Part shown: positions 38,996 through 50,538 of the stretch, in pieces | How the letters are laid out: each line of letters begins with the position of its first letter | Position numbering within the stretch: the first letter of the stretch is position 1 | Assembly (NCBI GenBank): GCA_040225955.1 | Contig: JBECUL010000005.1 | Coordinates: forward strand, 1-64,000 | Direction of reading: 5' to 3' | Length of the DNA stretch: 64,000 nucleotides | DNA from: Candidatus Asgardarchaeum abyssi | Lineage (GTDB): Archaea > Asgardarchaeota > Asgardarchaeia > Asgardarchaeales > Asgardarchaeaceae | Notes under the pieces: model-generated | Database searches by the model: none | What the model saw: the letters and a program-made list of their open reading frames with translations, nothing else | Told to the model about the DNA's origin: nothing | Made by a program: the position numbers and the translations under genes

Positions 38996-39402
38996 TTCGG
39001 ATCACCAGTATTATTGATTAGTATCACTCACATACGTTATTTATGATTTTATTAATTATACCATTTTTTCTACAAATGCTATTTATCTTTTAATATGGTT
39101 CTTTATAAAAAATTTACACTTTTTAGAAATACTTTCAAATATTTCATGATGTTTTTTTACTCCAATAATGTTTATGTACACATATATAGTTCCATCATTT
39201 TTTATATTATATAAATTCGATATTGATTTTACTTGTATGTCGTTGTTAAGTATGTCAAGTAAATAGCATGTATGCTCCTTTCCTTTTAAGCAGCAATAGT
39301 ATATTTTTAAGGCTCTTCATAGTTATTATTATAAAATTGAGCACAAAGGGGATATGCACGCTTTTAAATAAGATAATAAATGGTAGCATCTTGGTGATTA
39401 AG

Positions 39403-40713
39403 TTGGTACAAGTAAAACTCAATATAGGGTCGGGGAAGTTTTATAGAGCTGGATATACCAACATCGACTTTTTTGAAAGTGAAATTGCGGATAAGATAAT
39501 GAACGCTACTGATTTAGATTTTCCATCTAATAGCGTTGATGAGATTAGTGCATTTCACATAGTAGAGCATTTTGACTGCATTGAAGCTATATATGCACTA
39601 TCTGAGTGGTTCAGAGTTCTAAAACCCGGAGGGCTACTAATAATTGAAACTCCGGACTTGGAGAGAACTTTTAAGACTTTTCTTGAATCTGATAATGAAA
39701 AGAAAAAGGAATTATTGAGCTGGATATATGGTCTAAATGCTCCTGGAATGCTACATAAATGTGGCTTTACATACTCTTTAATCAAAGAAATTTTAGAAAG
39801 AGTTGGATTCACAAATATTAGAAAGGAAAAGCAAAAGACACATAAATACGCCCCTGGGATGAGAATAGTTTGCCAGAAGCCCGAAAATGAATATGAGGCG
39901 TATCAAATACTTTCGGAATTTAGAAAAAGAATACGGGCCTCTGCTAAGAATTTTATCGAGGGGCAAGACCTCTGGGAAGATTTTGAAGAGACTCTTATGA
40001 AACCTATAAGCTTACTTTTCCTGAAGCTCCTAAAATATAAAGATGTAACCGCTCTAGAGAAAATTTTTGAGTTCACAATATACTGTCCAACTGCTGTCAA
40101 AATTTTCTTCATCACATTTGAGAATTCAGAAATTTGCGAAAAACAAAAACTTAGACGATTTACAAGAAAGTACTTAGAGATTTGTGATTTCCTCGAGGAA
40201 ATAAATTTTCCAGGAAAACTAATGAAACTATGGGAAGATATCGATAAACAACCCGGGAAGGAAAAAGAACTATTCACAGAGTTTATTTTACTGGCAAGCA
40301 CATCAGTTAGAAAACTTTTAACCGATGAGTATTCATCTGTTAAACAACAGATATCCTCTATAGAAAGTCCTTACAAGCTAAATTACTTCTCACACTATGT
40401 AGTTCAGAAAGTCGCCGATCGAAAATTCCGCTTAGGAATAAAACATTTTGCAAATGAAAATCTCATAGAGGCGAAAAAGCTATTTATGGAAAGCCTGCAG
40501 CTAACACCAGATAATTTTCTGATAAGCTGGAATATTGCAAGAATATATGTCAAGCTTGGAGAGTATAAAAGGGCTGAGAAATTCTATCAAAGAGCTTTAA
40601 GAACTGTGCAATATAAAGACTTAAAAAAGAGATTATTAAGTGAAATTGATACCATTAAGAAGAAACAAGAGATCATCATATTTCCAATCGATGAAATTGC
40701 ACTGTCATTGTAG
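39403..40713 (+). CDS. SAM methyltransferase fused to a helical region and C-terminal TPR
   Basis: KLNIGSG, HIVEH, RVLKPGG, then TPR-like helices. TTG 39403 follows GGTGA. Confidence 0.75.
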   Translation: MVQVKLNIGSGKFYRAGYTNIDFFESEIADKIMNATDLDFPSNSVDEISAFHIVEHFDCIEAIYALSEWFRVLKPGGLLIIETPDLERTFKTFLESDNEKKKELLSWIYGLNAPGMLHKCGFTYSLIKEILERVGFTNIRKEKQKTHKYAPGMRIVCQKPENEYEAYQILSEFRKRIRASAKNFIEGQDLWEDFEETLMKPISLLFLKLLKYKDVTALEKIFEFTIYCPTAVKIFFITFENSEICEKQKLRRFTRKYLEICDFLEEINFPGKLMKLWEDIDKQPGKEKELFTEFILLASTSVRKLLTDEYSSVKQQISSIESPYKLNYFSHYVVQKVADRKFRLGIKHFANENLIEAKKLFMESLQLTPDNFLISWNIARIYVKLGEYKRAEKFYQRALRTVQYKDLKKRLLSEIDTIKKKQEIIIFPIDEIALSL

Positions 40714-40812: not shown

Positions 40813-41247
40813 TCATGGGTCAATTTTTCTATCTTTTATTGCATTTAAAAGTGCTTCATAAACGGAAATTAAATCACTTATATTATTTCTTAGTAGATCG
40901 TAAATTTTGTCTTCAAGCAACTCTGCGTAACAGTGTACAATCACATTTCTAAACCTTGCTAAATCCTTCATCAAATTTCCGATATCCAATGAAACAATCT
41001 TATTCTTTAACAAGATCATTCCAATATCCTTATATGATTTAGGTGCACCTAAGTTTAGCTCCGAAATTATGAAACTTCCGATATCAAGCAGACCTTCTAT
41101 AGCTATATGTAAGTTCCTCTCCGCACTATCAATATTTCTAAAATCGGAAATAAAATCTTCATAATTTAGCTTAGATAGCCATTTTAGCCTATCTAATGCT
41201 TTGCTTACTCGATTAATCCGATTTCTTAGACCCGGCGACGGCATCAA
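40813..41247 (-). CDS. hepT: HEPN/DUF86 toxin
   Basis: AERNL and FRNVIVHCY. Confidence 0.87.
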   Translation of the reverse strand: MMPSPGLRNRINRVSKALDRLKWLSKLNYEDFISDFRNIDSAERNLHIAIEGLLDIGSFIISELNLGAPKSYKDIGMILLKNKIVSLDIGNLMKDLARFRNVIVHCYAELLEDKIYDLLRNNISDLISVYEALLNAIKDRKIDP

Positions 41248-41644
41248 ATATCCCCCTAAAGTGGAAATCTTCTACATATTTAAAGTCCAAATAAAGCATA
41301 ATAGCAGTTGTCTTGTCTTCAACATACTTCTCTCTGTCTCTGCAAAAAATCAGTTTTCCATTAGCAAATATTTCATACCTCAGAGCTGGAGGTGTGGACA
41401 AAGCATCAATAACATCCACGCTTCTCTTAAATAAAGCTTCTAAATCATAAATAATATCCGAAACCCTAGAGAGACGACCATCCTCATCAATATCGTCAGA
41501 AAATCTTACGGCAATATCAATATCGCTATCGGTTCTAAAGTACTTAGTTGCGGCCGTACCAAAGAGGATAGCATACACAATATCATACTTTGAATAGCTC
41601 TGCTCAAAATATTCCTTCAACTTGCTAAAAATTATAGTGTGCAT
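41213..41644 (-). CDS. mntA: MNT antitoxin
   Basis: LFGT...DSDIDIAV...VDVI. Confidence 0.85.
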   Translation of the reverse strand: MHTIIFSKLKEYFEQSYSKYDIVYAILFGTAATKYFRTDSDIDIAVRFSDDIDEDGRLSRVSDIIYDLEALFKRSVDVIDALSTPPALRYEIFANGKLIFCRDREKYVEDKTTAIMLYLDFKYVEDFHFRGIFDAVAGSKKSD

Positions 41645-41943: not shown

Positions 41944-42849
41944 TCACTTTTTATTTCTTTTGACATTCTTACCATAATAGTGATCGATCACCCAAGAGTA
42001 TGCGAAAAAGCATATGAGGATTAATATTGCATATCCCCAGCCGAGAATAAATGGAAAGTACCAAAATGGAAGTTCAATCGCATCAGGTCTAGGTGCTGCA
42101 ATGATCAATCGAATTTCGGAGCATGCTATATATCCATTGTTAAAGACAGCACAAACACGCCAGTACCAGTCGCCAAATTGAAGACCTTCTTTGAGTGTGT
42201 ACTTAGTATCATTAATTCCTCTTACCTCTATGAGTTCTGAAGAGTTAAAATATTTTGTTGTGTCTATTTGGAGTATGTAACTTTTGGCACCATTAACACT
42301 TGTCCACCTAAAGGTTATTGAATGATTTATCTCAACAGTACAAGCATTTTCAGGAAATATTAGGCTAGGGGCTGGAAATACTACAATGATATTTCTCATT
42401 TCAGAGCATGCTCTTTGCCCATTTTCAAAGATAGCACAAATACGCCAATACCAATTACCAAATGGAAGACCTTCCTCAAGCGTATATTCAGTATCGTTTA
42501 TGCCTCTTATCTCTATAAGGTTAGACGAATTAAAGCACTTCGAGGTATCTATCTGGAGCGTGTAATTTTCAGCTTTGGTGACATCTGTCCATCTAAAAGT
42601 TATTGGACAGAATTCTTCAATAGCGCAAGCATTTTCGGGAGATATTAAAGTGGGAGCAGTAATGTTATTAGTTTGGTTAAAAATCATAGAGAGGTTACTG
42701 GAGATGAGAGACCAAGAGTATCCGATTAACATAACATTATAAGATGATGGATTTTTATCATCAGGTATTATCAATAATGTAGGTGAAAACAAAGAGGCCC
42801 AAAGAATTAAAAAGATTAAAAGAAACGAAGTCTTAATCATCCTCACCAC
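41944..42849 (-). CDS. Membrane-anchored surface protein with two tandem FnIII/Ig-like domains
   Basis: Signal peptide, APxLxxPENA...YxLQID...WYWRxCA repeated twice, C-terminal TM. Confidence 0.8.
   Translation of the reverse strand: MVRMIKTSFLLIFLILWASLFSPTLLIIPDDKNPSSYNVMLIGYSWSLISSNLSMIFNQTNNITAPTLISPENACAIEEFCPITFRWTDVTKAENYTLQIDTSKCFNSSNLIEIRGINDTEYTLEEGLPFGNWYWRICAIFENGQRACSEMRNIIVVFPAPSLIFPENACTVEINHSITFRWTSVNGAKSYILQIDTTKYFNSSELIEVRGINDTKYTLKEGLQFGDWYWRVCAVFNNGYIACSEIRLIIAAPRPDAIELPFWYFPFILGWGYAILILICFFAYSWVIDHYYGKNVKRNKK
42088..42657 (-). repeat. Intragenic direct repeat, 2 x 285 bp
   Basis: Equivalent Ala codons at 42657 and 42372, with closely similar 95-aa units. Confidence 0.85.
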
Positions 42850-43074
42850 CTAGCAATAGATAAACAATATACATGTTGGCACCTCCCACGATCAGTTCCT
42901 CTAGTTATAAGATTTACTCAAATCTTATATTATTCTATAGAATCGAACGTCAATAAATTATCTTTAATTACCTTTAATGACTATGAGTTGAATTATCTAG
43001 ATGATAGCAATAAAATGAATCGAAAAAACCAAAATTTTTGTATACATATACGAATACATATATAGGTGTTATTT

Positions 43075-43356
43075 ATGGGTAAGGAGGTATTACCAGTTCG
43101 CTTAGATAGAGAAATCATTGAAATTCTCGAAGAGATAGTTAAGGCTGGATTTTTTCCCGATAAGAGTAAAGCGGCTAGAGAACTATTGAAGTTGGGACTT
43201 GAAAAGTTTAATGAGGACATGATGGCAAGAATAAGCTCGTTAGTGGACATGGCTTACAACCTCATCGACAACTCTTATCATAGCATCTGCATCCTCTGCG
43301 GAAAAGGTAGTAGGGAGATATCTTGCTGCAATATATGCGTGCTCCGTCAACTTTAA
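43075..43356 (+). pseudogene. RHH antitoxin whose 3' end runs into the antisense of a HEPN gene
   Basis: MGKEVLPVRLD...KSKAARELL is RHH-like. The tail after ~43245 is the antisense of the HEPN ORF. Confidence 0.6.
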
Positions 43357-43618
43357 AATAAATCTATGTTTCTTTGAGAGCTCTTTAAAAAACTTATCGT
43401 TCGTAATTTCAAAAATGCTTGCAATTAATGTTCTAATAGAATGCGTTCTTAAAAGTTCGCCAGTCAGGTAAAGTATTGTTGCCTTAAGGTAAAGTTGTAG
43501 AGCCTGTTCGCTTAAAGCATGCCAAATCATAATTGCCTTTGTTAAATTGATCTTTAGCTGCCTCATGAAAATCCTTTGCCCTCTTTAGAAATAAGTTTAC
43601 AGTGTCAATACTACTCAA
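43240..43618 (-). pseudogene. HEPN-domain gene with a frameshift near 43514
   Basis: AGGTGA RBS plus TTG 43618 gives MSSIDTVNLFLKRAKDF...YDLACF. Another frame continues SEQALQLYLKA...THS...AYIAARY. Confidence 0.8.
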
Positions 43619-43858: not shown

Positions 43859-45229
43859 TTATCTCTTGAAGTCTTCTAGGTCCCATATAAGCCACTTTTC
43901 GCTTCTTAATTTCTCTTTTCCCTCGACACTTTTTGCAATTAGCCCATAATATTTATGCTCATCTGTTTGTACGTTTTGGGCCTTTCTTTCTAAGTTCTTC
44001 AACATTGTTTTTGCCTCCTTCTCCTTAAGGTTTCTCCATTTTACTTCGACGAATAAGGTGTTTCGCTTTTCTCCATTCAGGGCAACAATATCAATTTCTT
44101 CGTTTTTATGCCACCATTTTCCTATTTTTGTAAATCTGAAGGGCAGCTTATTTTCTTTATTGAGTTGTATTAGAAATTGTTTTGCAATTTCCTCAAAGAT
44201 TAAACCAAGGTAATGGTCAAGATCTTTCATAACGAGTTCAACTAATAATTCACCTTGTTCTGTTTCGATCAAATCAACATTAGGATGCACATATCGGAAC
44301 CAGAAAGCGAAATATGGATCTTTTATGTAGTAACGTCCTTTTCTACTCTTCCAACTAGCCGTTATAGGTACTTCCCGTTTTACAAAATCAAGATCTATAA
44401 GAACAGAAAGATACTTACCAACAATAGATCTATCAAGCCCTGTTTCGTTCATTATTTCACCAAGTAATGTTTTTCCTCTTGCGATAGCCTCCATTATCGC
44501 AAAGTAATTCCTTGGTTTATCAAGTTCTTCACGGATAACGAAAATTGCGTCTTGATAAAGAAACGAACCACTCACAAAGTAATTTCTGAGATTTTCTTGG
44601 ATACTTTTTTTATCATCGAATTCAAGTAAATAAGCTGGTGTTCCACCGAGTATTCCATACACTTTTACAAAATCCTCTAAGGAATATCTCGGTAAAAACT
44701 CTCTTGCACTAAAAAAATCCATTGGTTTTAACTTAATTTGTGCGGTTCTTCTTCCATAAAGTGGACTCTTGTACCCTAATAACTTTTCCATCATACTGAC
44801 TGAAGAACCACAGATTATTAGAAAGATTTTCCCTTTTGAAAACTTTAAGTCCCAGTATTCTTGGAGAATAGATGGTAGTGCGGGATCGTCTTTAACAAGA
44901 TAAGGAAACTCATCTATCACAACTATAAGTTTTTCATTAATGCTTTTCTGGTTAAGATATTCAAAAAAGGAATCCCAGTTTTGGAATGGATTCGCTTTAA
45001 GAATTTCATCATTAAAATATTCTGCTATTCTTTGAGAAAAACGCTCTAAATTTTCTTTTTTGCTTGTTTCTCTTGCAAGTAGATAAATTCCACCATATTT
45101 TCTGATAAGCTCTAAAAGTAGTGTTGTCTTACCGATTCTTCGCCTTCCATAAAGAATTACAAACTCTGCCTTATCGCTTCTAAATCTTTCTTCAAGAAAT
45201 TTGAGCTCATTTTTACGATTTATGAACAT
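43859..45229 (-). CDS. Archaeal ATPase (ATPase_2, wHTH, DUF234 PD-(D/E)xK)
   Basis: FINRKNEL, YGRRRIGKT, IDEFPY, SPLYGRRT, EIDIV...EVKW. Confidence 0.92.
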   Translation of the reverse strand: MFINRKNELKFLEERFRSDKAEFVILYGRRRIGKTTLLLELIRKYGGIYLLARETSKKENLERFSQRIAEYFNDEILKANPFQNWDSFFEYLNQKSINEKLIVVIDEFPYLVKDDPALPSILQEYWDLKFSKGKIFLIICGSSVSMMEKLLGYKSPLYGRRTAQIKLKPMDFFSAREFLPRYSLEDFVKVYGILGGTPAYLLEFDDKKSIQENLRNYFVSGSFLYQDAIFVIREELDKPRNYFAIMEAIARGKTLLGEIMNETGLDRSIVGKYLSVLIDLDFVKREVPITASWKSRKGRYYIKDPYFAFWFRYVHPNVDLIETEQGELLVELVMKDLDHYLGLIFEEIAKQFLIQLNKENKLPFRFTKIGKWWHKNEEIDIVALNGEKRNTLFVEVKWRNLKEKEAKTMLKNLERKAQNVQTDEHKYYGLIAKSVEGKEKLRSEKWLIWDLEDFKR

Positions 45230-45261: not shown

Positions 45262-45418
45262 ATTATTTAAGATTTTCTATATCTTATTTGTATGGCACAT
45301 CATTATCAATAATTCGTACAATGAGACTTAGGAAACTTTATGTAGTTTTACTTACACAACAATCTTTATTAAAACTTAAATAAAAGCAGCGTTTATTTAT
45401 TTCACGAGGGAGAATAAC

Positions 45419-45832
45419 TTGTCTAAAGAGAAAATTTATCAAGTTGCTAAAAAGCTTGGTGTCAATGAGAAAGAAACTACAAGAATTATTCGGCTTGTTA
45501 AAATATATAGGTCACCAATCATTTCGCTTATCATAGGCTTCTTATACGGCTATCTATTTGGAGAGTACATTCACAATTACTACTACTATCTGAGGTATCC
45601 ATTTATCTACAATGAAATATTTTTGCCCGGCATGGCATTGGTTGATGCAAGACGAATAAAAATATTATCGGCAATATCAGGATTAATTGGATTTTTAGCT
45701 GGATCCCTACTTGGATTTAAGTTTCCAGTCTACCATGTTTCACTTAAGTATGGTGTTTTTTCTGAAGCTGGAAGTAAGAGAAAAGGTCTACAACCTCGCC
45801 AGATAATGGCGTCTAAGTTATTGTCCCACTGA
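45419..45832 (+). CDS. 2-TM membrane protein with C-terminal KYG motif (candidate radical-SAM substrate)
   Basis: GAGGGAG RBS, two TM helices, HVSLKYGVF. Ends 6 nt upstream of the rSAM gene. Confidence 0.7.
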   Translation: MSKEKIYQVAKKLGVNEKETTRIIRLVKIYRSPIISLIIGFLYGYLFGEYIHNYYYYLRYPFIYNEIFLPGMALVDARRIKILSAISGLIGFLAGSLLGFKFPVYHVSLKYGVFSEAGSKRKGLQPRQIMASKLLSH

Positions 45833-45838
45833 AGTGGG

Positions 45839-46861
45839 TTGCTAATGAGAAGGTACAAGTTATACACCGTAATATGGGAAATTACACTAAAATGCAACTT
45901 GAGATGCTTACATTGTGGGTCATCTGCTGGCTATGCTAGGAGTGATGAGCTCACAACAAAGGAAGCACTAAAGGTAGTTAAAGAACTTGCTGAGCTAAAA
46001 GCAAAAGATATTTGCCTAATGGGCGGGGAGCCCTTTTTAAGAGATGATTGGTTTGAAATAGCAAAAGCAATAAAAGATTATGGCATGGAGCTGAGCTTTG
46101 TTTCGAATGGTCTAATTTTAGACAAGGTAATAGATGACCTCGCAAAATTGGAACCTATAGTTGTCGGTATCAGCCTTGATGGGACAGAGAAGGTACATGA
46201 CATGATAAGGGGTGTTAAAGGGTCATTTAAGAAGGCAATCGAAGCGATAAATCTGCTTACTTTGAGGGACATTCAAACCACAGTAATAACAACAGTTAGC
46301 AAATTGAACCTTACTGAATTGCCGAAAATTAAAGAGATTTTAAAGAACAAGAATGTCAACTGGCAAATTCAGTACGCTTTGCCTATAGGCAGATTTGATA
46401 GAAAATATCTCATCTCGCCAGAAGAGTTTTATGCTGTTGGTATTTTCATAGCTCACTGCAACCTTATGAATCCATTAGCTCATTTCCCAGTTGTTGGTGC
46501 TCATGGTATGGGATATTACTCTGAAAGATTGCCGGATTATGGAGGCTGGTACGGCTGTACTGCAGGAATTAGTAGTTTAGGTATTAGGAGTAATGGCAAC
46601 ATTACTGGTTGCTTAACATTACCAGAAGAATATGATGAGGGCAATGTAAGAGAAAGAAGTATAGCCGATATTTGGAATGATGAGGACGCATTCCCATACA
46701 CAAGAAAATTCAATTTAGACCAACTCGGTGAAAACTGTAGGAATTGCAAATTTGGGAGCATCTGTAAAGGTGGGTGCAGTGCCTCATCATTATATCTTAC
46801 TGGACGTTTTCATAATAATCCTTATTGCTTTCGAAGATTGGAGCGTGCGTATAAAATTTGA
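45839..46861 (+). CDS. Radical SAM/SPASM protein, splicease (PlpX)-like
   Basis: WEITLKCNLRCLHCGSSAG, GGEP, WQIQ, GYY, WYGCTAG...GC, CxxCx5Cx3C...YC. Confidence 0.85.
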   Translation: MLMRRYKLYTVIWEITLKCNLRCLHCGSSAGYARSDELTTKEALKVVKELAELKAKDICLMGGEPFLRDDWFEIAKAIKDYGMELSFVSNGLILDKVIDDLAKLEPIVVGISLDGTEKVHDMIRGVKGSFKKAIEAINLLTLRDIQTTVITTVSKLNLTELPKIKEILKNKNVNWQIQYALPIGRFDRKYLISPEEFYAVGIFIAHCNLMNPLAHFPVVGAHGMGYYSERLPDYGGWYGCTAGISSLGIRSNGNITGCLTLPEEYDEGNVRERSIADIWNDEDAFPYTRKFNLDQLGENCRNCKFGSICKGGCSASSLYLTGRFHNNPYCFRRLERAYKI

Positions 46862-46875
46862 TATTGGAGGAACTA

Positions 46876-47496
46876 CTAATAATTTTTAGTTCTGTTTTGG
46901 GCTTTAATGGCCTTCCTTAACATAATACTAAGCCTATATTTTTCTGTTTCAATTATTTCAAATCCCACTTGTTTAAGATGTCCCTCCCTCAATATACCGT
47001 TATATGAAACCAGCCACACAATTGGATTCTTCCTAGAGGAAAACTCTGCTGATACATAAATCCCATTCGGTTTCAATACGCGTTTAATTTCCTCCAACAC
47101 AGTGAGCTTCTCATCATCAGTAAAGTGATGGAACACCATTGATGAAAAGATGACGTCAAAATAGCTATCGGGAAATGGAATTCTTTTTGCATTGTAAGTC
47201 AGAAAATTAGGAATACACTCTTTCCCTCTAAATTTTTTCCTTGCTCTCTCAATCATCTTTTCTGAGATATCGATAGCGTATATTCTATCACACGTAATTA
47301 TTTCAGACAAATATTTTTCCAGCTCTCCAGTTCCACATCCAATATCTAAAATGGTTTCTTTACCTTTAAGGTTTGCAAATTCTATCAATTTTTTTCTATA
47401 TGCCTTATCTCCTCTCAACAATAAGGTGATAATCAGATCATATATGGGTGCAACTAGCTCAAGCAAGCGTGTAATTGTGTGCATTCTCATTCCCAC
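46876..47496 (-). CDS. Class I SAM methyltransferase (UbiE-like)
   Basis: ILDIGCGTG, IDIS, FDVI, RVLKPNG. Confidence 0.88.
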   Translation of the reverse strand: MGMRMHTITRLLELVAPIYDLIITLLLRGDKAYRKKLIEFANLKGKETILDIGCGTGELEKYLSEIITCDRIYAIDISEKMIERARKKFRGKECIPNFLTYNAKRIPFPDSYFDVIFSSMVFHHFTDDEKLTVLEEIKRVLKPNGIYVSAEFSSRKNPIVWLVSYNGILREGHLKQVGFEIIETEKYRLSIMLRKAIKAQNRTKNY

Positions 47497-47640: not shown

Positions 47641-50538
47641 TTATTGATTTCTTAGGAGTTCTACGATGTTCTTAATAACAATTCTATTCAGAAGATATAG
47701 AGAAATTGCAAAAGATAAAGCAATATTAATCAGAGTCAACTCTATAGCGAATGTCAATGGTATTGAAACTAATTGATTCAAGAAATAGCTTTTTATGAAC
47801 CCTATATCAATTTCGGTCATGGTAAAAGCAATAAGCGGAATAATTATAGTATTAACTATATCACCGACAAGTGCAGATAAAATAGCGCTTGCATTGACTA
47901 AGCATATATCTAGGAATAAAGACACTCTAAAGTCATTATTGGATGCTCCTAAGACACTTAACATCCCTATTTCTTGCCTTCTATCAAGTAAGAAGAAATA
48001 AGTATTAATGAGATATCCAATGAATGCAAAAATCAATGGAACTAAAACTATAGAGGCTACGAAATTGGAATACCTTCGAGCATCATATAAATTTTCTCTT
48101 GCACGCTCAACTCTACTATTAACGCTCAGGTATGGAAACTTTTGCGATAACTTTTCTTTGACTTCTAAATCTTTTCCTTTTTGAACACCAATAAGGAAAT
48201 AGCATATCTCATCTTCACTTTTACAGTACTTGAAAAACAATTTGTAGTTCATTATAATAAATCGCTTACCACTCCCTTTGTTTTCAAGAGCCTCTATGTA
48301 ATTACTAACTATAGAAATTACAGTTACATTCGGAATCTCACACCATTGATCGTATAGTAGTGGAGTTTCTCTGACTTTTAAAGCAAAAGAGCTCCGAACC
48401 GACAGATTAAAGTCATCTGCCAATTTATTTGAAATAATGATATAATTTTTCTGACTCATTTTCTCTAAAGTTTCTTTCCAGTTATTCTCTCCAGCAATAA
48501 TTTCATTTTCATGCAGCAGAGGAGCCGTCTGATTTAAAAAGGTAATAGGATCTATTAGATATATGTGTAATACTTTGGAATCATCAACGCCAAACGCGTT
48601 GTTCTCTAAGTCTTGAACGATTACAGCATTAAGCAGAATATTTCCAAAGTATGCTAATGCAAAATCTTTATGGTAGAATGATGTAACGTGAGTTACATTT
48701 TCAATCTCAGAGATGTTCCGGGCTATCTCTGGCGTATAGATATATGATGTTGCATCTATTTGATATAGGCCATTAAATGCTCTCTCATATTCCGCTTCTG
48801 CATGAGTTACAATAAATAACGAAGTATGATACAATACTATGGAGAATGTAAAAATTAGAGACAATATAATTATCGAATACATTTTCCTTCTTTCATTCCT
48901 CAAAGCATAAACTATCGTAAACCTTAAGAAAGAGAGGTTTTTTAGACTAAACCTCATAACAACTTTCAATACAATTTTATAAATGGCGATACAAAGCAGA
49001 GGAATCCATGCAAATTGTGACACCATGAAAATAGCAGACGATACTTCATATGGCAAAGAAATCAAACCCTGCACGGTCAAAATGTAAATAAGGATCGGTA
49101 GAATTAACAAAACTAAGCCAAGAATTTTAGCATGCATTTTAATTTCAAATTTTTCGATTAGGATCTTTTGCTTTTCCCGAAGCGATAGAATAAGATCTCT
49201 CTTTGTAATGAGATACGCTACCATAAATAATACGATAAACGCAGAGAGAAGTAGAAGTAGCAAATTAAAATACCCATAAACAATATACTCTGTAGAACTT
49301 ATCACCGGTTTCTTAATACCAGCCAAGTCTGCATATGAAAGCAATATGTCCATGAAAAAATATGTTAAATAGGGTGTTATTACGGTTCCAAAAACGGCAC
49401 CACCACAACTAATTAAGAGAATTTCCATAACCATAATCATTCTTAAATTCGTAATATCCATCCCAAGAACTCTAAGAACTCCATACTCTTTTTCATATTT
49501 TTTGAAATAATATGTAACTATCGTATAAATAAAAGAAAAACTGATGACGATAGAGGCCACACTTAAAATCACTGTAAGCTGATCCGTTATCATAAAATAT
49601 GCCTTATCAATAGATTTAAGAAGTCTATATTTTGGAATTTCGCCCCATATAGGAATTTCTCCATTCCCTTTAACAACTCCTCGCTCCTCATAAAATAGAA
49701 TTACGGTTGCATTTATCTCTTTTAATAGGAAGCCCTCTGAAAATTTGAGCATATCTGAAATTAAACTATTATAATAATCTGACAGTTTAGGAGCTTTTCT
49801 ATAACTGTATTTGAAAGAAATCGCATTCACCATATTTTCGCATGAAAATACTTTCTGCAAGTAATATAAATTTACAAAGATGGGAAGGATATAGCAAATC
49901 ATTTTTATACTTTTTGAAAAAAGCGATGAAATATTATATACTGCGGCAATTTTTATCGTTATATTTACGCTTGTGGTTTTTAAAAAGAGAATTGCATTAA
50001 CTTCATCTCCGATGCTTACATTTAGTTGTTTGAATAGCATATATGGAAAAATCGCCTCTCCACCAGAAAAGTTTCTTATCGAAAAATCATTATCGCTTAA
50101 CACTATGTAATCCTTTATTGCGTTGATCATCCAATCTTTAGAAGGGTCTACACCTATTATTTGCGAGGAAAGCGATTTACTTTTATACATTATCATACTG
50201 CTCAGAACATGAATTTGTAATGCAAAGGTTATATTTGGATAATTCTCCATATTATACGAATCATAGTAAGATTCCAGCTTGACTTTAACGTACTCTTGAG
50301 CCACTTTCCCGAGAATTGACTGATTGAGCATATCTTGGCTCGCGAATAGCATGTCTGGAATTATATCAGGAGTTATTCCAGAGAAAATACTCTTTTGAAT
50401 AACTATTCTTGAAATAATCGCACTATTCAGTATTGCCACACTTAACGCAAAGACTATAATTATCTGAACTAGCCTTGATTTCTCTCTTGTTACCAATCTG
50501 AATATCAACCATGGTATGATTTCTGACATTTCCAGCAA
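47641..50538 (-). CDS. Double FtsX/MacB-type ABC permease
   Basis: Two modules, each with a large extracellular domain and EYGVLRVLG / EIGMLSVLG motifs. Confidence 0.85.
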   Translation of the reverse strand: MLEMSEIIPWLIFRLVTREKSRLVQIIIVFALSVAILNSAIISRIVIQKSIFSGITPDIIPDMLFASQDMLNQSILGKVAQEYVKVKLESYYDSYNMENYPNITFALQIHVLSSMIMYKSKSLSSQIIGVDPSKDWMINAIKDYIVLSDNDFSIRNFSGGEAIFPYMLFKQLNVSIGDEVNAILFLKTTSVNITIKIAAVYNISSLFSKSIKMICYILPIFVNLYYLQKVFSCENMVNAISFKYSYRKAPKLSDYYNSLISDMLKFSEGFLLKEINATVILFYEERGVVKGNGEIPIWGEIPKYRLLKSIDKAYFMITDQLTVILSVASIVISFSFIYTIVTYYFKKYEKEYGVLRVLGMDITNLRMIMVMEILLISCGGAVFGTVITPYLTYFFMDILLSYADLAGIKKPVISSTEYIVYGYFNLLLLLLSAFIVLFMVAYLITKRDLILSLREKQKILIEKFEIKMHAKILGLVLLILPILIYILTVQGLISLPYEVSSAIFMVSQFAWIPLLCIAIYKIVLKVVMRFSLKNLSFLRFTIVYALRNERRKMYSIIILSLIFTFSIVLYHTSLFIVTHAEAEYERAFNGLYQIDATSYIYTPEIARNISEIENVTHVTSFYHKDFALAYFGNILLNAVIVQDLENNAFGVDDSKVLHIYLIDPITFLNQTAPLLHENEIIAGENNWKETLEKMSQKNYIIISNKLADDFNLSVRSSFALKVRETPLLYDQWCEIPNVTVISIVSNYIEALENKGSGKRFIIMNYKLFFKYCKSEDEICYFLIGVQKGKDLEVKEKLSQKFPYLSVNSRVERARENLYDARRYSNFVASIVLVPLIFAFIGYLINTYFFLLDRRQEIGMLSVLGASNNDFRVSLFLDICLVNASAILSALVGDIVNTIIIPLIAFTMTEIDIGFIKSYFLNQLVSIPLTFAIELTLINIALSFAISLYLLNRIVIKNIVELLRNQ

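What the first reader, a model, noticed from the sequence alone, without database searches (positions are those of the whole stretch)
45419..46861. Candidate archaeal splicease system: PlpX-like radical SAM enzyme plus a KYG-bearing membrane protein
Seen: a two-gene operon with a 6-nt gap. The rSAM has WEITLKCNLxCxHCGSxAG...ELTTxEAL...GGEPFLRxDW, WQIQ, GYY and WxGCxAG...LGI...GC before the SPASM cysteines. The upstream 137-aa 2-TM protein has HVSL-K110-Y111-G112-VF (45746-54) in its soluble tail, plus an LYG in TM1. Known: this motif set is how I recall PlpX-type spliceases and relatives (TIGR04103, TIGR03913, TIGR04133). PlpX-type enzymes excise tyramine at XYG sites to create alpha-keto-beta-amide backbones in adjacently encoded substrates. 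Inference: the membrane protein is the substrate, giving backbone splicing of an integral membrane protein in an archaeon, with no separate RRE/PlpY partner visible.
Basis: partly seen in the sequence, partly recalled or inferred. Interest (0 to 1): 0.85.

Follow-up and report, generated by a model that had tools for sequence, protein, structure and literature searches.

The report
Splicease-like enzyme with tyrosine-tailed membrane protein
An Asgard archaeon encodes a small membrane protein next to an iron-sulfur radical enzyme that most likely rewrites one invariant tyrosine in the protein's tail, perhaps by the backbone 'splicing' so far shown only in bacteria; the pairing is real and widespread, but the chemistry is untested.

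Summary
A 137-aa protein with two hydrophobic segments (45419-45832) sits 12 nt before a radical SAM/SPASM gene (45845-46861).

- **Enzyme family.** The best NCBIfam hits are TIGR04103 (PlpX type), TIGR03913 and TIGR04133, all far below their cut-offs. In my tree the enzyme belongs to a separate clade, sister to those families and apart from MftC and NirJ.
- **Substrate.** Relatives occur in at least 585 species. 64 of 86 loci carry precursor-like ORFs nearby, nearly all on the same strand. These share an N-terminal leader helix and an invariant Tyr, Y111 here. The next residue is Gly in only 74%.
- **Binding.** A complex model places the leader helix on the enzyme (score 0.69; best control 0.01). 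Tyr111 was not confidently docked.
A methyltransferase-TPR gene (about 39391-40713) lies 4.7 kb upstream. Its homologue lies on the rSAM's strand, within about 3.2 kb, in 69 of 85 loci.

Verdict: a leader-guided, tyrosine-directed maturase of a membrane protein. Tyramine splicing is the leading but unproven chemistry.

This scan has reported the same cassette on other DNA, with at least 18 notes in 14 or more genomes.

The parts
39268..40713 (+). Methyltransferase-TPR, the third conserved component of the cassette. The true start is probably near 39391-39403. Here it is separated from the other two genes by about 4.7 kb.
   Evidence: 46% identity over the full length to the 437-aa methyltransferase next to the rSAM in L002. 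Pfam finds Methyltransf_11/23 plus TPR_2. A homologue lies on the same strand as the rSAM in 69 of 85 loci. There is a single copy in the window's own genome.
45392..45412 (+). A/T-rich TATA-like box (TTTATTTATTT, 45392-45402) and a ribosome-binding site (GAGGGAG, 45406-45412) ahead of the precursor gene.
   Evidence: Read directly from the sequence. Assignment as a promoter is inference only.
45419..45832 (+). Precursor or substrate protein, 137 aa. In order: leader helix, hydrophobic segment 1, Tyr-Pro loop, hydrophobic segment 2, and a Tyr-Gly tail.
   Evidence: ORF. A 93% identical twin with the same gene order occurs in an Odinarchaeota MAG. Five distant homologues were found among 1.8 billion representatives, all with x-Y-G-V-[FY] near the C-terminus. 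It scores E 3.5e-29 against the family HMM and is the only clear hit in its own genome. No Pfam or NCBIfam family matches.
45422..45508 (+). Leader helix (residues 2-30, KEKIYQVAKKLGVNEKE...), the predicted docking element for the enzyme.
   Evidence: The family-wide leader consensus is K-[LI]-x-x-[LI]-[GA]-x-x-L-G-[LVI]-x-x-x-[ED]-[IV]. All confident contacts of the complex model fall in residues 2-30.
45596..45601 (+). Invariant Tyr60-Pro61 in the loop between the hydrophobic segments. Its role is unexplained.
   Evidence: Invariant in 44 sequences. Pro is present in 115 of 117 aligned precursors.
45746..45760 (+). Core motif K110-Y111-G112-V113-F114, with Tyr111 the proposed site of modification.
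   Evidence: Coordinates. Tyr is present in 121 of 121 aligned precursors. Y+1 is G in 90, A in 8, N in 6, Y in 6 and D in 4. Y+2 is V, T, S or A. V113 is conserved at 90% or more.
45845..46861 (+). Radical SAM/SPASM enzyme, 338 aa. It has C17-x3-C21-x2-C24 and a full seven-Cys SPASM set (C238, C256, C298, C301, C307, C311, C328).
   Evidence: It is monophyletic with its homologues and sister to the TIGR04103, TIGR03913 and TIGR04133 group. Signature residues shared with those families but not with the outgroups are L15, G25, T149, W173, Q174, Q176, G223 and G255.
46418..46468 (+). Enzyme helix, residues 192-208 (SPEEFYAVGIFIAHCNL), the predicted docking site for the leader helix.
   Evidence: These are the lowest-error contacts in the complex model. 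E193, E194, Y196 and F201 are invariant or nearly so in the family.

Best explanation
The two genes form a binary, leader-guided protein-maturation pair. The methyltransferase-TPR gene 4.7 kb upstream is the displaced third component.

**Proposed course**
1. The 137-aa protein keeps its lysine/arginine-rich N-terminus in the cytoplasm.
2. Its N-terminal helix (residues 2-30) docks on helix 192-208 of the radical SAM/SPASM enzyme. This plays the part that PlpY, or the RhaA leader helix, plays in bacterial spliceotide systems.
3. The enzyme then uses a 5'-deoxyadenosyl radical to modify the invariant Tyr111, which sits in the tail just after the second hydrophobic segment.
4. The most likely reaction is excision of a tyramine equivalent (C8H9NO, -135.07 Da) at K110-Y111-G112. 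This would leave an alpha-keto-beta-amino (ketoamide) residue derived from Lys110, on a protein that stays membrane-anchored.
5. A ketoamide would make the tail a protease-reactive warhead.

**Shown:** gene adjacency; family-wide co-occurrence; the invariant Tyr and the leader motif; the enzyme's position next to proven spliceases.

**Supported by a model only:** leader docking.

**Inferred:** Tyr111 as the site, the splicing chemistry, the membrane topology, the product's function, and what the methyltransferase does.
For: **Enzyme kinship**
- The best NCBIfam hit is TIGR04103 (230.5 bits, one full-length stretch), then TIGR03913 and TIGR04133. NirJ (155), AhbD (151) and PqqE (94) score lower.
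- tblastn against plasmids shows a score gap: 193-229 bits for PGAP-named TIGR04103 and TIGR03913 proteins and three unnamed relatives, against 137 or less for MftC and the rest.
- In the tree the family is monophyletic (SH-aLRT 96). It joins those YG-associated families to the exclusion of MftC, NirJ, TIGR04053 and TIGR04347 (96).
- Eight signature residues, including the W-Q-x-Q motif, are shared only within that larger group.

**Neighbours of the related families also carry Tyr-Gly**
- Nostoc Nif11 precursor: ...ALYGLPPELF.
- DUF1842 proteins: ...MYGV....
- DUF1843 peptides: PYGA, MYAA.
- TIGR04133 lipoprotein: CEYGSP.

**Substrate relationship**
- 130 precursor-like ORFs lie next to 64 of 86 rSAM loci, and 124 are on the same strand. 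The median distance is 460 nt, and loci carry 1-5 copies.
- One peptide (L026) has three repeated cores.
- Tyr is present in 121 of 121, and the leader motif is shared by the membrane, soluble and Kunitz-fused subtypes.

**Binding model**
- ipSAE is 0.69 (median of three runs) against 0.01 for the best of three controls.
- The tool's calibration gives this mark to 58 of 80 solved complexes and 2 of 110 mismatched pairs.
- The runs agree in at least 35% of contacts, and partner pLDDT is at least 49.
- No like complex has been solved; the nearest PDB relatives are SkfB, PqqE and SuiB at 107 bits or less.

**Hint at function**
- Desulfobacterota and Nitrospira relatives fuse the same core to a Kunitz/BPTI protease-inhibitor domain (PF00014, E 5.6e-15).
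- Spliced ketoamide peptides are protease inhibitors (PMC11626197).

**Parallel with binary spliceases**
- Binary spliceases lacking a Y protein use a helix in the leader (PMC11414181).
Against: - All NCBIfam cut-offs are missed by a wide margin. The family is a separate sister clade, not nested among proven spliceases, so function is extrapolated across about 36% identity.
- The Gly of the XYG motif, described as the normal splice site, is replaced in 26% of precursors. Whole loci have only YN, YD, YY, YA, YF or YH cores.
- A methyltransferase-TPR is a near-constant partner. The splicease papers I could read do not describe such a partner.
- Tyr111 was not among the confidently placed residues in the complex model.
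- A second invariant motif, Y60-P61, lies in the loop that a simple hairpin topology would put outside the cell. The splicing model does not explain it.
- There are no mass-spectrometry or expression data.
Confidence: 0.48

Rival explanations
1. The substrate relationship and leader guidance are the same, but the radical chemistry at the invariant Tyr is different. Candidates are a three-residue cyclophane or a Tyr-to-Y+2 C-C/C-O cross-link, beta-hydroxylation, dehydrogenation or epimerisation. The methyltransferase-TPR would then methylate the product.
For: - The family-wide motif is Y-x-[V/T/S/A], with a variable middle residue: G in 74%, otherwise A, N, D, Y, F, H or E. From my own knowledge, this fits the aromatic-x-x pattern of cyclophane-forming enzymes better than a strict XYG rule does.
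- The methyltransferase is a core partner in 69 of 85 loci.
- The family is a clade of its own, and SPASM enzymes change chemistry between clades.
Against: - The nearest characterised relatives by score and by tree are spliceases, not cross-linkers.
- The solved cyclophane synthase ChlB scores only 41 bits against the family profile, against 83 for PqqE.
- The three related families all have Tyr-Gly or Tyr-Ala next-door partners.
- TIGR03913-type partners also tolerate Ala at Y+1, so a relaxed Y+1 may be normal in this larger group.
Confidence: 0.35
2. The small protein is not a substrate. It is a membrane anchor or scaffold that recruits the radical SAM enzyme, and the methyltransferase, to the membrane. 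There they would modify a lipid or some other molecule.
For: - The confident model contacts involve only the N-terminal helix, not the Tyr tail.
- The partner here has two hydrophobic segments.
- Archaeal lipid chemistry relies on radical SAM enzymes (the papers listed).
Against: - Many relatives have soluble partners of about 60 aa with no hydrophobic segment. Some are tandem or multi-core (L013, L017, L026, L036), and others are fused to a Kunitz domain.
- Across all subtypes only the leader and the Tyr core are conserved. That is the pattern of a precursor, not of an anchor.
Confidence: 0.09
3. The enzyme is a cofactor-biosynthesis SPASM protein of the AhbD or NirJ type, and its adjacency to the small ORF is chance.
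For: NirJ and AhbD models give 151-155 bits.
Against: - Those hits are 75 bits below the top hit, split into two stretches, and below their cut-offs.
- The tree separates the family from NirJ.
- The partner ORF is conserved next to homologues in many phyla.
Confidence: 0.03

Closest known systems
Binary (type II) spliceotide systems: RhaX/RhaA, RcsX/RcsA and RasX/RasA of Rheinheimera (PMC11414181, PMC11626197)
   Same: - A radical SAM/SPASM enzyme with an adjacent precursor and no separate Y/RRE protein.
- A helix in the precursor's N-terminal part is modelled as binding the enzyme.
- The precursor carries a Tyr-Gly site near its C-terminus.
   Different: - I had no Rheinheimera sequence, so kinship to RhaX itself was not tested.
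- The substrate here is a 137-aa protein with two hydrophobic segments, not a secreted peptide.
- A methyltransferase-TPR belongs to the cassette.
- Gly is not invariant across the family.
- The host is an archaeon.
Type I spliceotide systems: PlpX/PlpY/PlpA and PcpXYA (NCBIfam TIGR04103, IPR026482)
   Same: - TIGR04103 is the best-scoring curated family.
- The enzyme is 36% identical to a PGAP-named TIGR04103 member on a Nostoc plasmid, whose Nif11 precursor ends ...ALYGLPPELF.
- The two share the W-Q-x-Q and H-C-G-S signatures.
   Different: - 230.5 bits against a cut-off of 725.
- A sister clade, not a member.
- No PlpY, and no Nif11 or NHLP leader.
- The enzyme is shorter, 338 aa against about 420.
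TIGR03913 'GDL motif peptide-associated radical SAM/SPASM maturase' with DUF1842/DUF1843 partners
   Same: - It is the second-best family.
- Partners occur as tandem paralogues carrying M-Y-G-V, P-Y-G-A or M-Y-A-A.
- One relative, in Aureibacter, also has a class I methyltransferase next door.
   Different: - 208 bits against a cut-off of 592.
- The partners are unrelated in sequence, and their Tyr lies N-terminal to a GDL helix.
- The Aureibacter methyltransferase is not detectably homologous to the methyltransferase-TPR.
- The papers I could read gave no function for DUF1842/DUF1843.
TIGR04133 radical SAM/SPASM protein with 'radical SAM-associated putative lipoprotein' (Bacteroidales)
   Same: - It is the third-best family.
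- The partner is membrane-tethered and carries Glu-Tyr-Gly-Ser-Pro just after the lipobox.
   Different: - 174 bits against a cut-off of 425.
- It has a very long branch in the tree.
- The anchor is a lipid, and the motif lies at the N-terminus of the mature protein.

Membership tests
Tyramine spliceases (PlpX type, NCBIfam TIGR04103) | Radical SAM CxxxCxxC cluster plus a full SPASM domain | tested here: met
   C17/C21/C24 and seven SPASM cysteines are invariant in 59 sequences. Pfam finds Radical_SAM and SPASM.
Tyramine spliceases (PlpX type, NCBIfam TIGR04103) | Score at or above the curated family cut-off (725 bits) | tested here: not met
   230.5 bits; 229.4 bits in the genome search.
Tyramine spliceases (PlpX type, NCBIfam TIGR04103) | Falls inside the clade of characterised spliceases | tested here: not met
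   The family is its own clade (SH-aLRT 96), sister to the group holding TIGR04103 and TIGR03913. Only one TIGR04103 sequence was available, and the tree used the quick method.
Tyramine spliceases (PlpX type, NCBIfam TIGR04103) | X-Tyr-Gly motif in an adjacently encoded precursor | tested here: met
   K110-Y111-G112 in this window. Across the family Tyr is present in 121 of 121, but Gly in only 90 of 121.
Tyramine spliceases (PlpX type, NCBIfam TIGR04103) | A Y protein/RRE, or a leader helix that binds the enzyme | tested here: inconclusive
   There is no Y gene. The model places leader residues 2-30 on enzyme helix 192-208, with ipSAE 0.69 against 0.01 for the best control. A model supports binding but does not show it.
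Tyramine spliceases (PlpX type, NCBIfam TIGR04103) | Loss of C8H9NO (135.07 Da) with formation of an alpha-keto-beta-amide | not testable with these tools
   Needs co-expression and MS/MS.
TIGR03913 (GDL-motif peptide-associated maturase) | Curated cut-off of 591.75 bits and a DUF1842/DUF1843 partner | tested here: not met
   208.4 bits. The small protein has no Pfam hit.
TIGR04133 (rSAM with lipoprotein) | Curated cut-off of 425 bits and an adjacent lipoprotein | tested here: not met
   174.2 bits. The partner has two hydrophobic segments and no lipobox.
Heme-pathway SPASM enzymes (AhbD, NirJ) | Curated cut-offs (500 and 515 bits) and clade membership | tested here: not met
   151 and 155 bits in two stretches. 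NirJ falls in the outgroup cluster.
Three-residue cyclophane synthases (triceptide maturases) | Aromatic-x-x core motif, and kinship to XyeB/ChlB-type enzymes | tested here: inconclusive
   The core Y-x-[VTSA] fits the motif. Kinship is weak: the 25 best NCBIfam hits shown name no triceptide or cyclophane maturase, and ChlB scores 41 bits against the family profile.

The most novel reading that the evidence does not exclude
This clade, together with its methyltransferase-TPR, performs a tyrosine-directed backbone or side-chain rewrite that is not classical XYG splicing. Gly is dispensable and methylation is built into the cassette. The modification would be installed on the cytoplasmic tails of integral membrane proteins. 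That would give Asgard and other anaerobic archaea a class of post-translationally edited membrane proteins with no described counterpart.
Probability: 0.3. Interest if true: 0.85.

Novelty: new variant of a known kind. Interest (0 to 1): 0.62.

Why it matters
In the papers I could read, backbone splicing by radical SAM enzymes has been shown only for bacterial peptides and for engineered proteins. A review summarising the main survey speaks of 189 bacterial genera (PMC10849128). I could not read that survey itself (Scott et al., Chem 2022), so it may already mention archaeal relatives.

If this clade splices, it would extend ribosomal beta-amino-acid chemistry to archaea and to native integral membrane proteins. 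It would also point to membrane-anchored ketoamide warheads of unknown target.

The system is directly testable. It needs three genes, the site and the expected mass shift are defined, and the cassette is present in the cultured Asgard strain MK-D1 (L037).

If the chemistry differs from splicing, it would be a new tyrosine modification with a wide distribution: at least 585 species carry the enzyme, as do 20 of 86 high-quality Asgard genomes sampled.

Tried and rejected
- **Lipoyl, heme or lipid housekeeping enzyme.** I considered this because of the roughly 55% identity across phyla. I rejected it on the conserved precursor neighbours and the tree.
- **The convergent 206-aa methyltransferase (46876-47496).** I tested it as the cassette partner. 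It shares only 44 aligned residues with the cassette methyltransferase, so it is not the partner.
- **LYG42 in the first hydrophobic segment as a second site.** It is not conserved.
- **More precursors or paralogues in the window's own genome.** There are none. The next HMM hit has E 0.024 and looks like a helix-turn-helix protein.
- **Word-indexed search with the small protein.** It found only the 93% identical twin. The exhaustive phmmer search was needed to find the distant relatives.
- **Scott et al. 2022 (Chem).** It is not held in the library, so I could not check whether it lists this clade.
- **DUF1842/DUF1843 literature.** It gave no link to splicing.
- **Aureibacter methyltransferase against the methyltransferase-TPR.** No homology was detected.
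- **Positive-inside analysis.** The N-terminus is clearly lysine/arginine-rich (0.31 per residue). The loop (0.13) and the tail (0.12) cannot be told apart, so the topology stays inferred.
- **Complex model.** It did not place Tyr111 confidently. It therefore gives no evidence either way about the active site.
Full report
**1. What is in the sequence**

The window is AT-rich, about 33% G+C. At 45419-45832 (+) there is a 137-aa ORF with a TTG start, GAGGGAG six bases upstream and an A/T-rich box before that.

A radical SAM/SPASM gene follows. The ATG at 45845 gives 338 aa, the length of the nearest homologue and of the gene called in the twin contig. The gap is then 12 nt.

The next gene downstream is convergent, and the gene upstream is divergent. 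The two genes therefore form their own unit.

K110-Y111-G112 maps to 45746-45754, and two hydrophobic segments lie at about residues 33-51 and 80-100.

**2. The enzyme**

Pfam finds Radical_SAM and SPASM.

NCBIfam ranks TIGR04103 (PlpX type) first at 230.5 bits, then TIGR03913 (208) and TIGR04133 (174). NirJ (155), AhbD (151), MftC (141) and PqqE (94) follow. Every hit is far below its curated cut-off.

The enzyme has more than 1,000 homologues at about 45-60% identity and near-constant length. A scan of one genome per species found at least 585 species with a relative. These include Asgard groups (among them the cultured Promethearchaeum syntrophicum MK-D1), Thermoplasmatota, DPANN lineages, Elusimicrobiota, Desulfobacterota, Nitrospirota and Chloroflexota.

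Within the window's own phylum, 33 of 201 sampled genomes have it, or 20 of 86 among the high-quality ones. It occurs in 14 of 59 genera, so the distribution is patchy. The window's genome has one copy.

To place the enzyme I took PGAP-named relatives from plasmid records. There is a clear score gap:
- 193-229 bits for TIGR04103, TIGR03913 and three unnamed proteins;
- 137 bits or less for MftC and everything else.

In a maximum-likelihood tree of 47 rows (quick search) the family is one clade (SH-aLRT 96). It joins TIGR04103, TIGR03913, TIGR04133 and the unnamed relatives to the exclusion of MftC, NirJ, TIGR04053, TIGR04347 and a Bacillus SPASM protein (SH-aLRT 96). It is sister to those families, not nested among them. 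Only one TIGR04103 sequence was available, and TIGR04133 sits on a very long branch.

Eight residues that are near-invariant in the family are shared with those relatives and not with the outgroups: L15, G25, T149, W173, Q174, Q176, G223 and G255.

No close relative has a solved structure. The best PDB hits are SkfB, PqqE and SuiB, and the cyclophane synthase ChlB scores only 41 bits.

**3. The small protein is a conserved partner**

It matches no Pfam or NCBIfam family. A word-indexed search found only a 93% identical twin in an Odinarchaeota MAG with the same gene order. An exhaustive phmmer search of 1.8 billion representatives found five distant relatives. All carry x-Y-G-V-[F/Y] near the C-terminus.

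Approaching from the enzyme side, the genes next to rSAM homologues encode similar proteins. An HMM iterated on ORFs from 86 loci gave these figures:
- 130 precursor-like ORFs (128 unique) out of 4,493 ORFs scanned;
- they lie in 64 loci, with 124 on the enzyme's strand;
- the median distance from the enzyme gene is about 460 nt;
- loci carry one to five copies.

Several loci scored as empty still carry the motif in ORFs the HMM missed.

In the HMM alignment the core Tyr is present in 121 of 121 sequences. Y+1 is Gly in 90, Ala in 8, Asn in 6, Tyr in 6 and Asp in 4. Y+2 is Val, Thr, Ser or Ala. A leader motif, K-[LI]-x-x-[LI]-[GA]-x-x-L-G-[LVI]-x-x-x-[ED]-[IV], is shared by all subtypes.

In 44 relatives with two hydrophobic segments and 19% mean column identity, the only invariant columns are Y60, P61 and Y111. 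The LYG in the first segment is not conserved.

The subtypes are informative:
- Membrane proteins ending ...Y-G/N/D-V-F/Y, as in this window and in MK-D1, which has three.
- Soluble peptides of about 60 aa ending ...YYGTISIKDF, often in tandem. One (L026) has three cores in a single peptide.
- Thorarchaeotal proteins with a single hydrophobic segment and a ...LYGTISPRDF tail.
- Elusimicrobial ...GTRY[Y/A/F/H]TVS..DF.
- Desulfobacterota and Nitrospira proteins in which a Kunitz/BPTI domain (PF00014, E 5.6e-15) precedes ...SKYG[A/G]VG.RDF.

A shared leader with a shared Tyr core, set in otherwise unrelated scaffolds and repeated in tandem, is the pattern of a precursor family. It is not the pattern of an anchor.

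**4. Binding model**

I folded the enzyme (59-row alignment) with the small protein (my 44-sequence alignment, which the tool reports as 42 rows). Three 4Fe-4S clusters and SAM were included.

| Measure | Value |
|---|---|
| Scores of the three runs | 0.69, 0.46, 0.75 |
| Median score | 0.69 |
| Best of three controls | 0.01 |
| Calibration: solved complexes reaching this mark | 58 of 80 |
| Calibration: mismatched pairs reaching this mark | 2 of 110 |
| Contact agreement between runs | at least 35% |
| Partner pLDDT | at least 49 |

The tool warns that its calibration counts hold only roughly here, because it used my own alignments and ligands were included.

All confident contacts link precursor residues 2-30 to enzyme residues 156-160, 192-208, 228-230 and 336-338. 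The 192-208 helix carries family-invariant E193, E194, Y196 and F201. This supports, but does not show, leader docking. It parallels what was modelled for the RhaA leader and for PlpY (PMC11414181).

Tyr111 was not among the confident contacts, so the model says nothing about the active site.

**5.

Next to most homologues lies a methyltransferase of about 437 aa with a TPR tail. The window ORF 39268-40713 is 46% identical to it over the full length and has Methyltransf_11/23 plus TPR_2. By homology its start is probably near 39391-39403. A homologue sits on the rSAM's strand in 69 of 85 loci.

In this genome it is displaced. Between it and the precursor lie these genes:
- a HepT/nucleotidyltransferase toxin-antitoxin pair;
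- an Ig-like membrane protein;
- a HEPN gene;
- an ATPase_2/DUF234 gene.

The convergent 206-aa methyltransferase at 46876-47496 is unrelated to the cassette enzyme. The Kunitz-type loci lack the methyltransferase, so it is common but not obligatory.

**6. What it most likely does**

The evidence is strong that the small protein is a leader-guided substrate and that the invariant Tyr marks the site.

The chemistry is inferred from kinship. The only characterised relatives excise tyramine at X-Tyr-Gly (PMC11414181, PMC11626197, PMC11002830). The partners of all three nearest families also carry Tyr-Gly or Tyr-Ala. The Kunitz fusions fit a protease-inhibitor product.

Four observations count against simple splicing:
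- the separate clade;
- the dispensable Gly;
- the built-in methyltransferase;
- the unexplained Tyr60-Pro61.

In the non-membrane subtypes the Tyr-Pro motif lies only 4-5 residues before the core Tyr. In this protein it lies in the loop on the far side of the second hydrophobic segment.

The N-terminus is clearly lysine/arginine-rich and so probably cytoplasmic. The loop and the tail cannot be told apart by charge.

My odds:

| Reading | Probability |
|---|---|
| Splicing at Tyr111 | about 0.48 |
| Another Tyr-directed reaction | about 0.35 |
| Scaffold, not substrate | about 0.09 |
| Cofactor enzyme, adjacency by chance | about 0.03 |

**7. Novelty and earlier notes**

I found no paper on this clade in the searchable library. 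The key survey (Scott et al. 2022) is not held. A review summarises it as covering 189 bacterial genera (PMC10849128).

This scan has reported the same cassette on other DNA: 18 notes in at least 14 genomes, plus look-alikes of this enzyme in 13 windows and a note on the Kunitz variant. Those notes agree with what I tested here. One of them prompted me to look for the methyltransferase-TPR in this window.

What is particular to this window is a minimal form of the cassette. It has one precursor, one enzyme and one methyltransferase, with the methyltransferase split off by inserted genes.

Noticed in passing
window 40813-41644 (-): A HepT-like RNase (PF01934, E 2e-25) overlaps a Pol-beta-type nucleotidyltransferase. 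This is a HEPN/MNT toxin-antitoxin pair, and it is part of the 4.7 kb that separates the methyltransferase-TPR from the precursor and rSAM genes.
   Followed up: partly
window 43066-43566 and 43859-45229: A second HEPN-domain gene (43240-43566, -) overlaps a 96-aa ORF of no known family on the other strand. It is followed by an archaeal ATPase_2/DUF234 gene with a winged-helix domain, divergent from the precursor gene.
   Followed up: partly
window 41944-42849 (-): A 301-aa protein with an N-terminal signal or hydrophobic segment and a C-terminal hydrophobic segment. It has two internal repeats of about 100 aa (…FRWT.V..A..Y.LQIDT.K.FNSS.LIE.RGINDT.YTL.EGL.FG.WYWR.CA.F…). Its Ig-like Pfam hits are weak.
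   Followed up: no
window 47641-50538 (-): A 965-aa protein with FtsX-like permease domains lies just beyond the convergent methyltransferase. I did not test any link to the cassette.
   Followed up: no
L055:3460-3996, L061:3574-3999 (also L060, L066, L074): In Desulfobacterota and Nitrospira, the partner of the same rSAM family carries a Kunitz/BPTI protease-inhibitor domain, followed by the core ...SKYG[A/G]VG.RDF. These loci lack the methyltransferase-TPR.
   Followed up: partly
L026:3615-3869: One Thermoplasmatales precursor carries three repeated cores in a single 85-aa peptide (VYKAGTDYGTVS..., VYKAGTYYGTVS..., VYKAGTYYGTISIRDF). This is typical of multi-core RiPP precursors.
   Followed up: no
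L090, L092, L095 (plasmid records): TIGR03913-type enzymes sit after tandem DUF1843 peptides or DUF1842-DUF1843 proteins. These carry Tyr-Gly or Tyr-Ala just before the GDL helix. In Aureibacter a class I methyltransferase follows the enzyme. A crystallography paper on the Burkholderia DUF1842/DUF1843 protein (PMC10994174) does not mention the neighbouring radical SAM gene.
   Followed up: partly
L002:3296-4876: In the closest Asgard loci (L002-L004), a fused lipoate-protein ligase/DUF116 gene lies just upstream of the two precursor genes. It is probably unrelated to the cassette.
   Followed up: no
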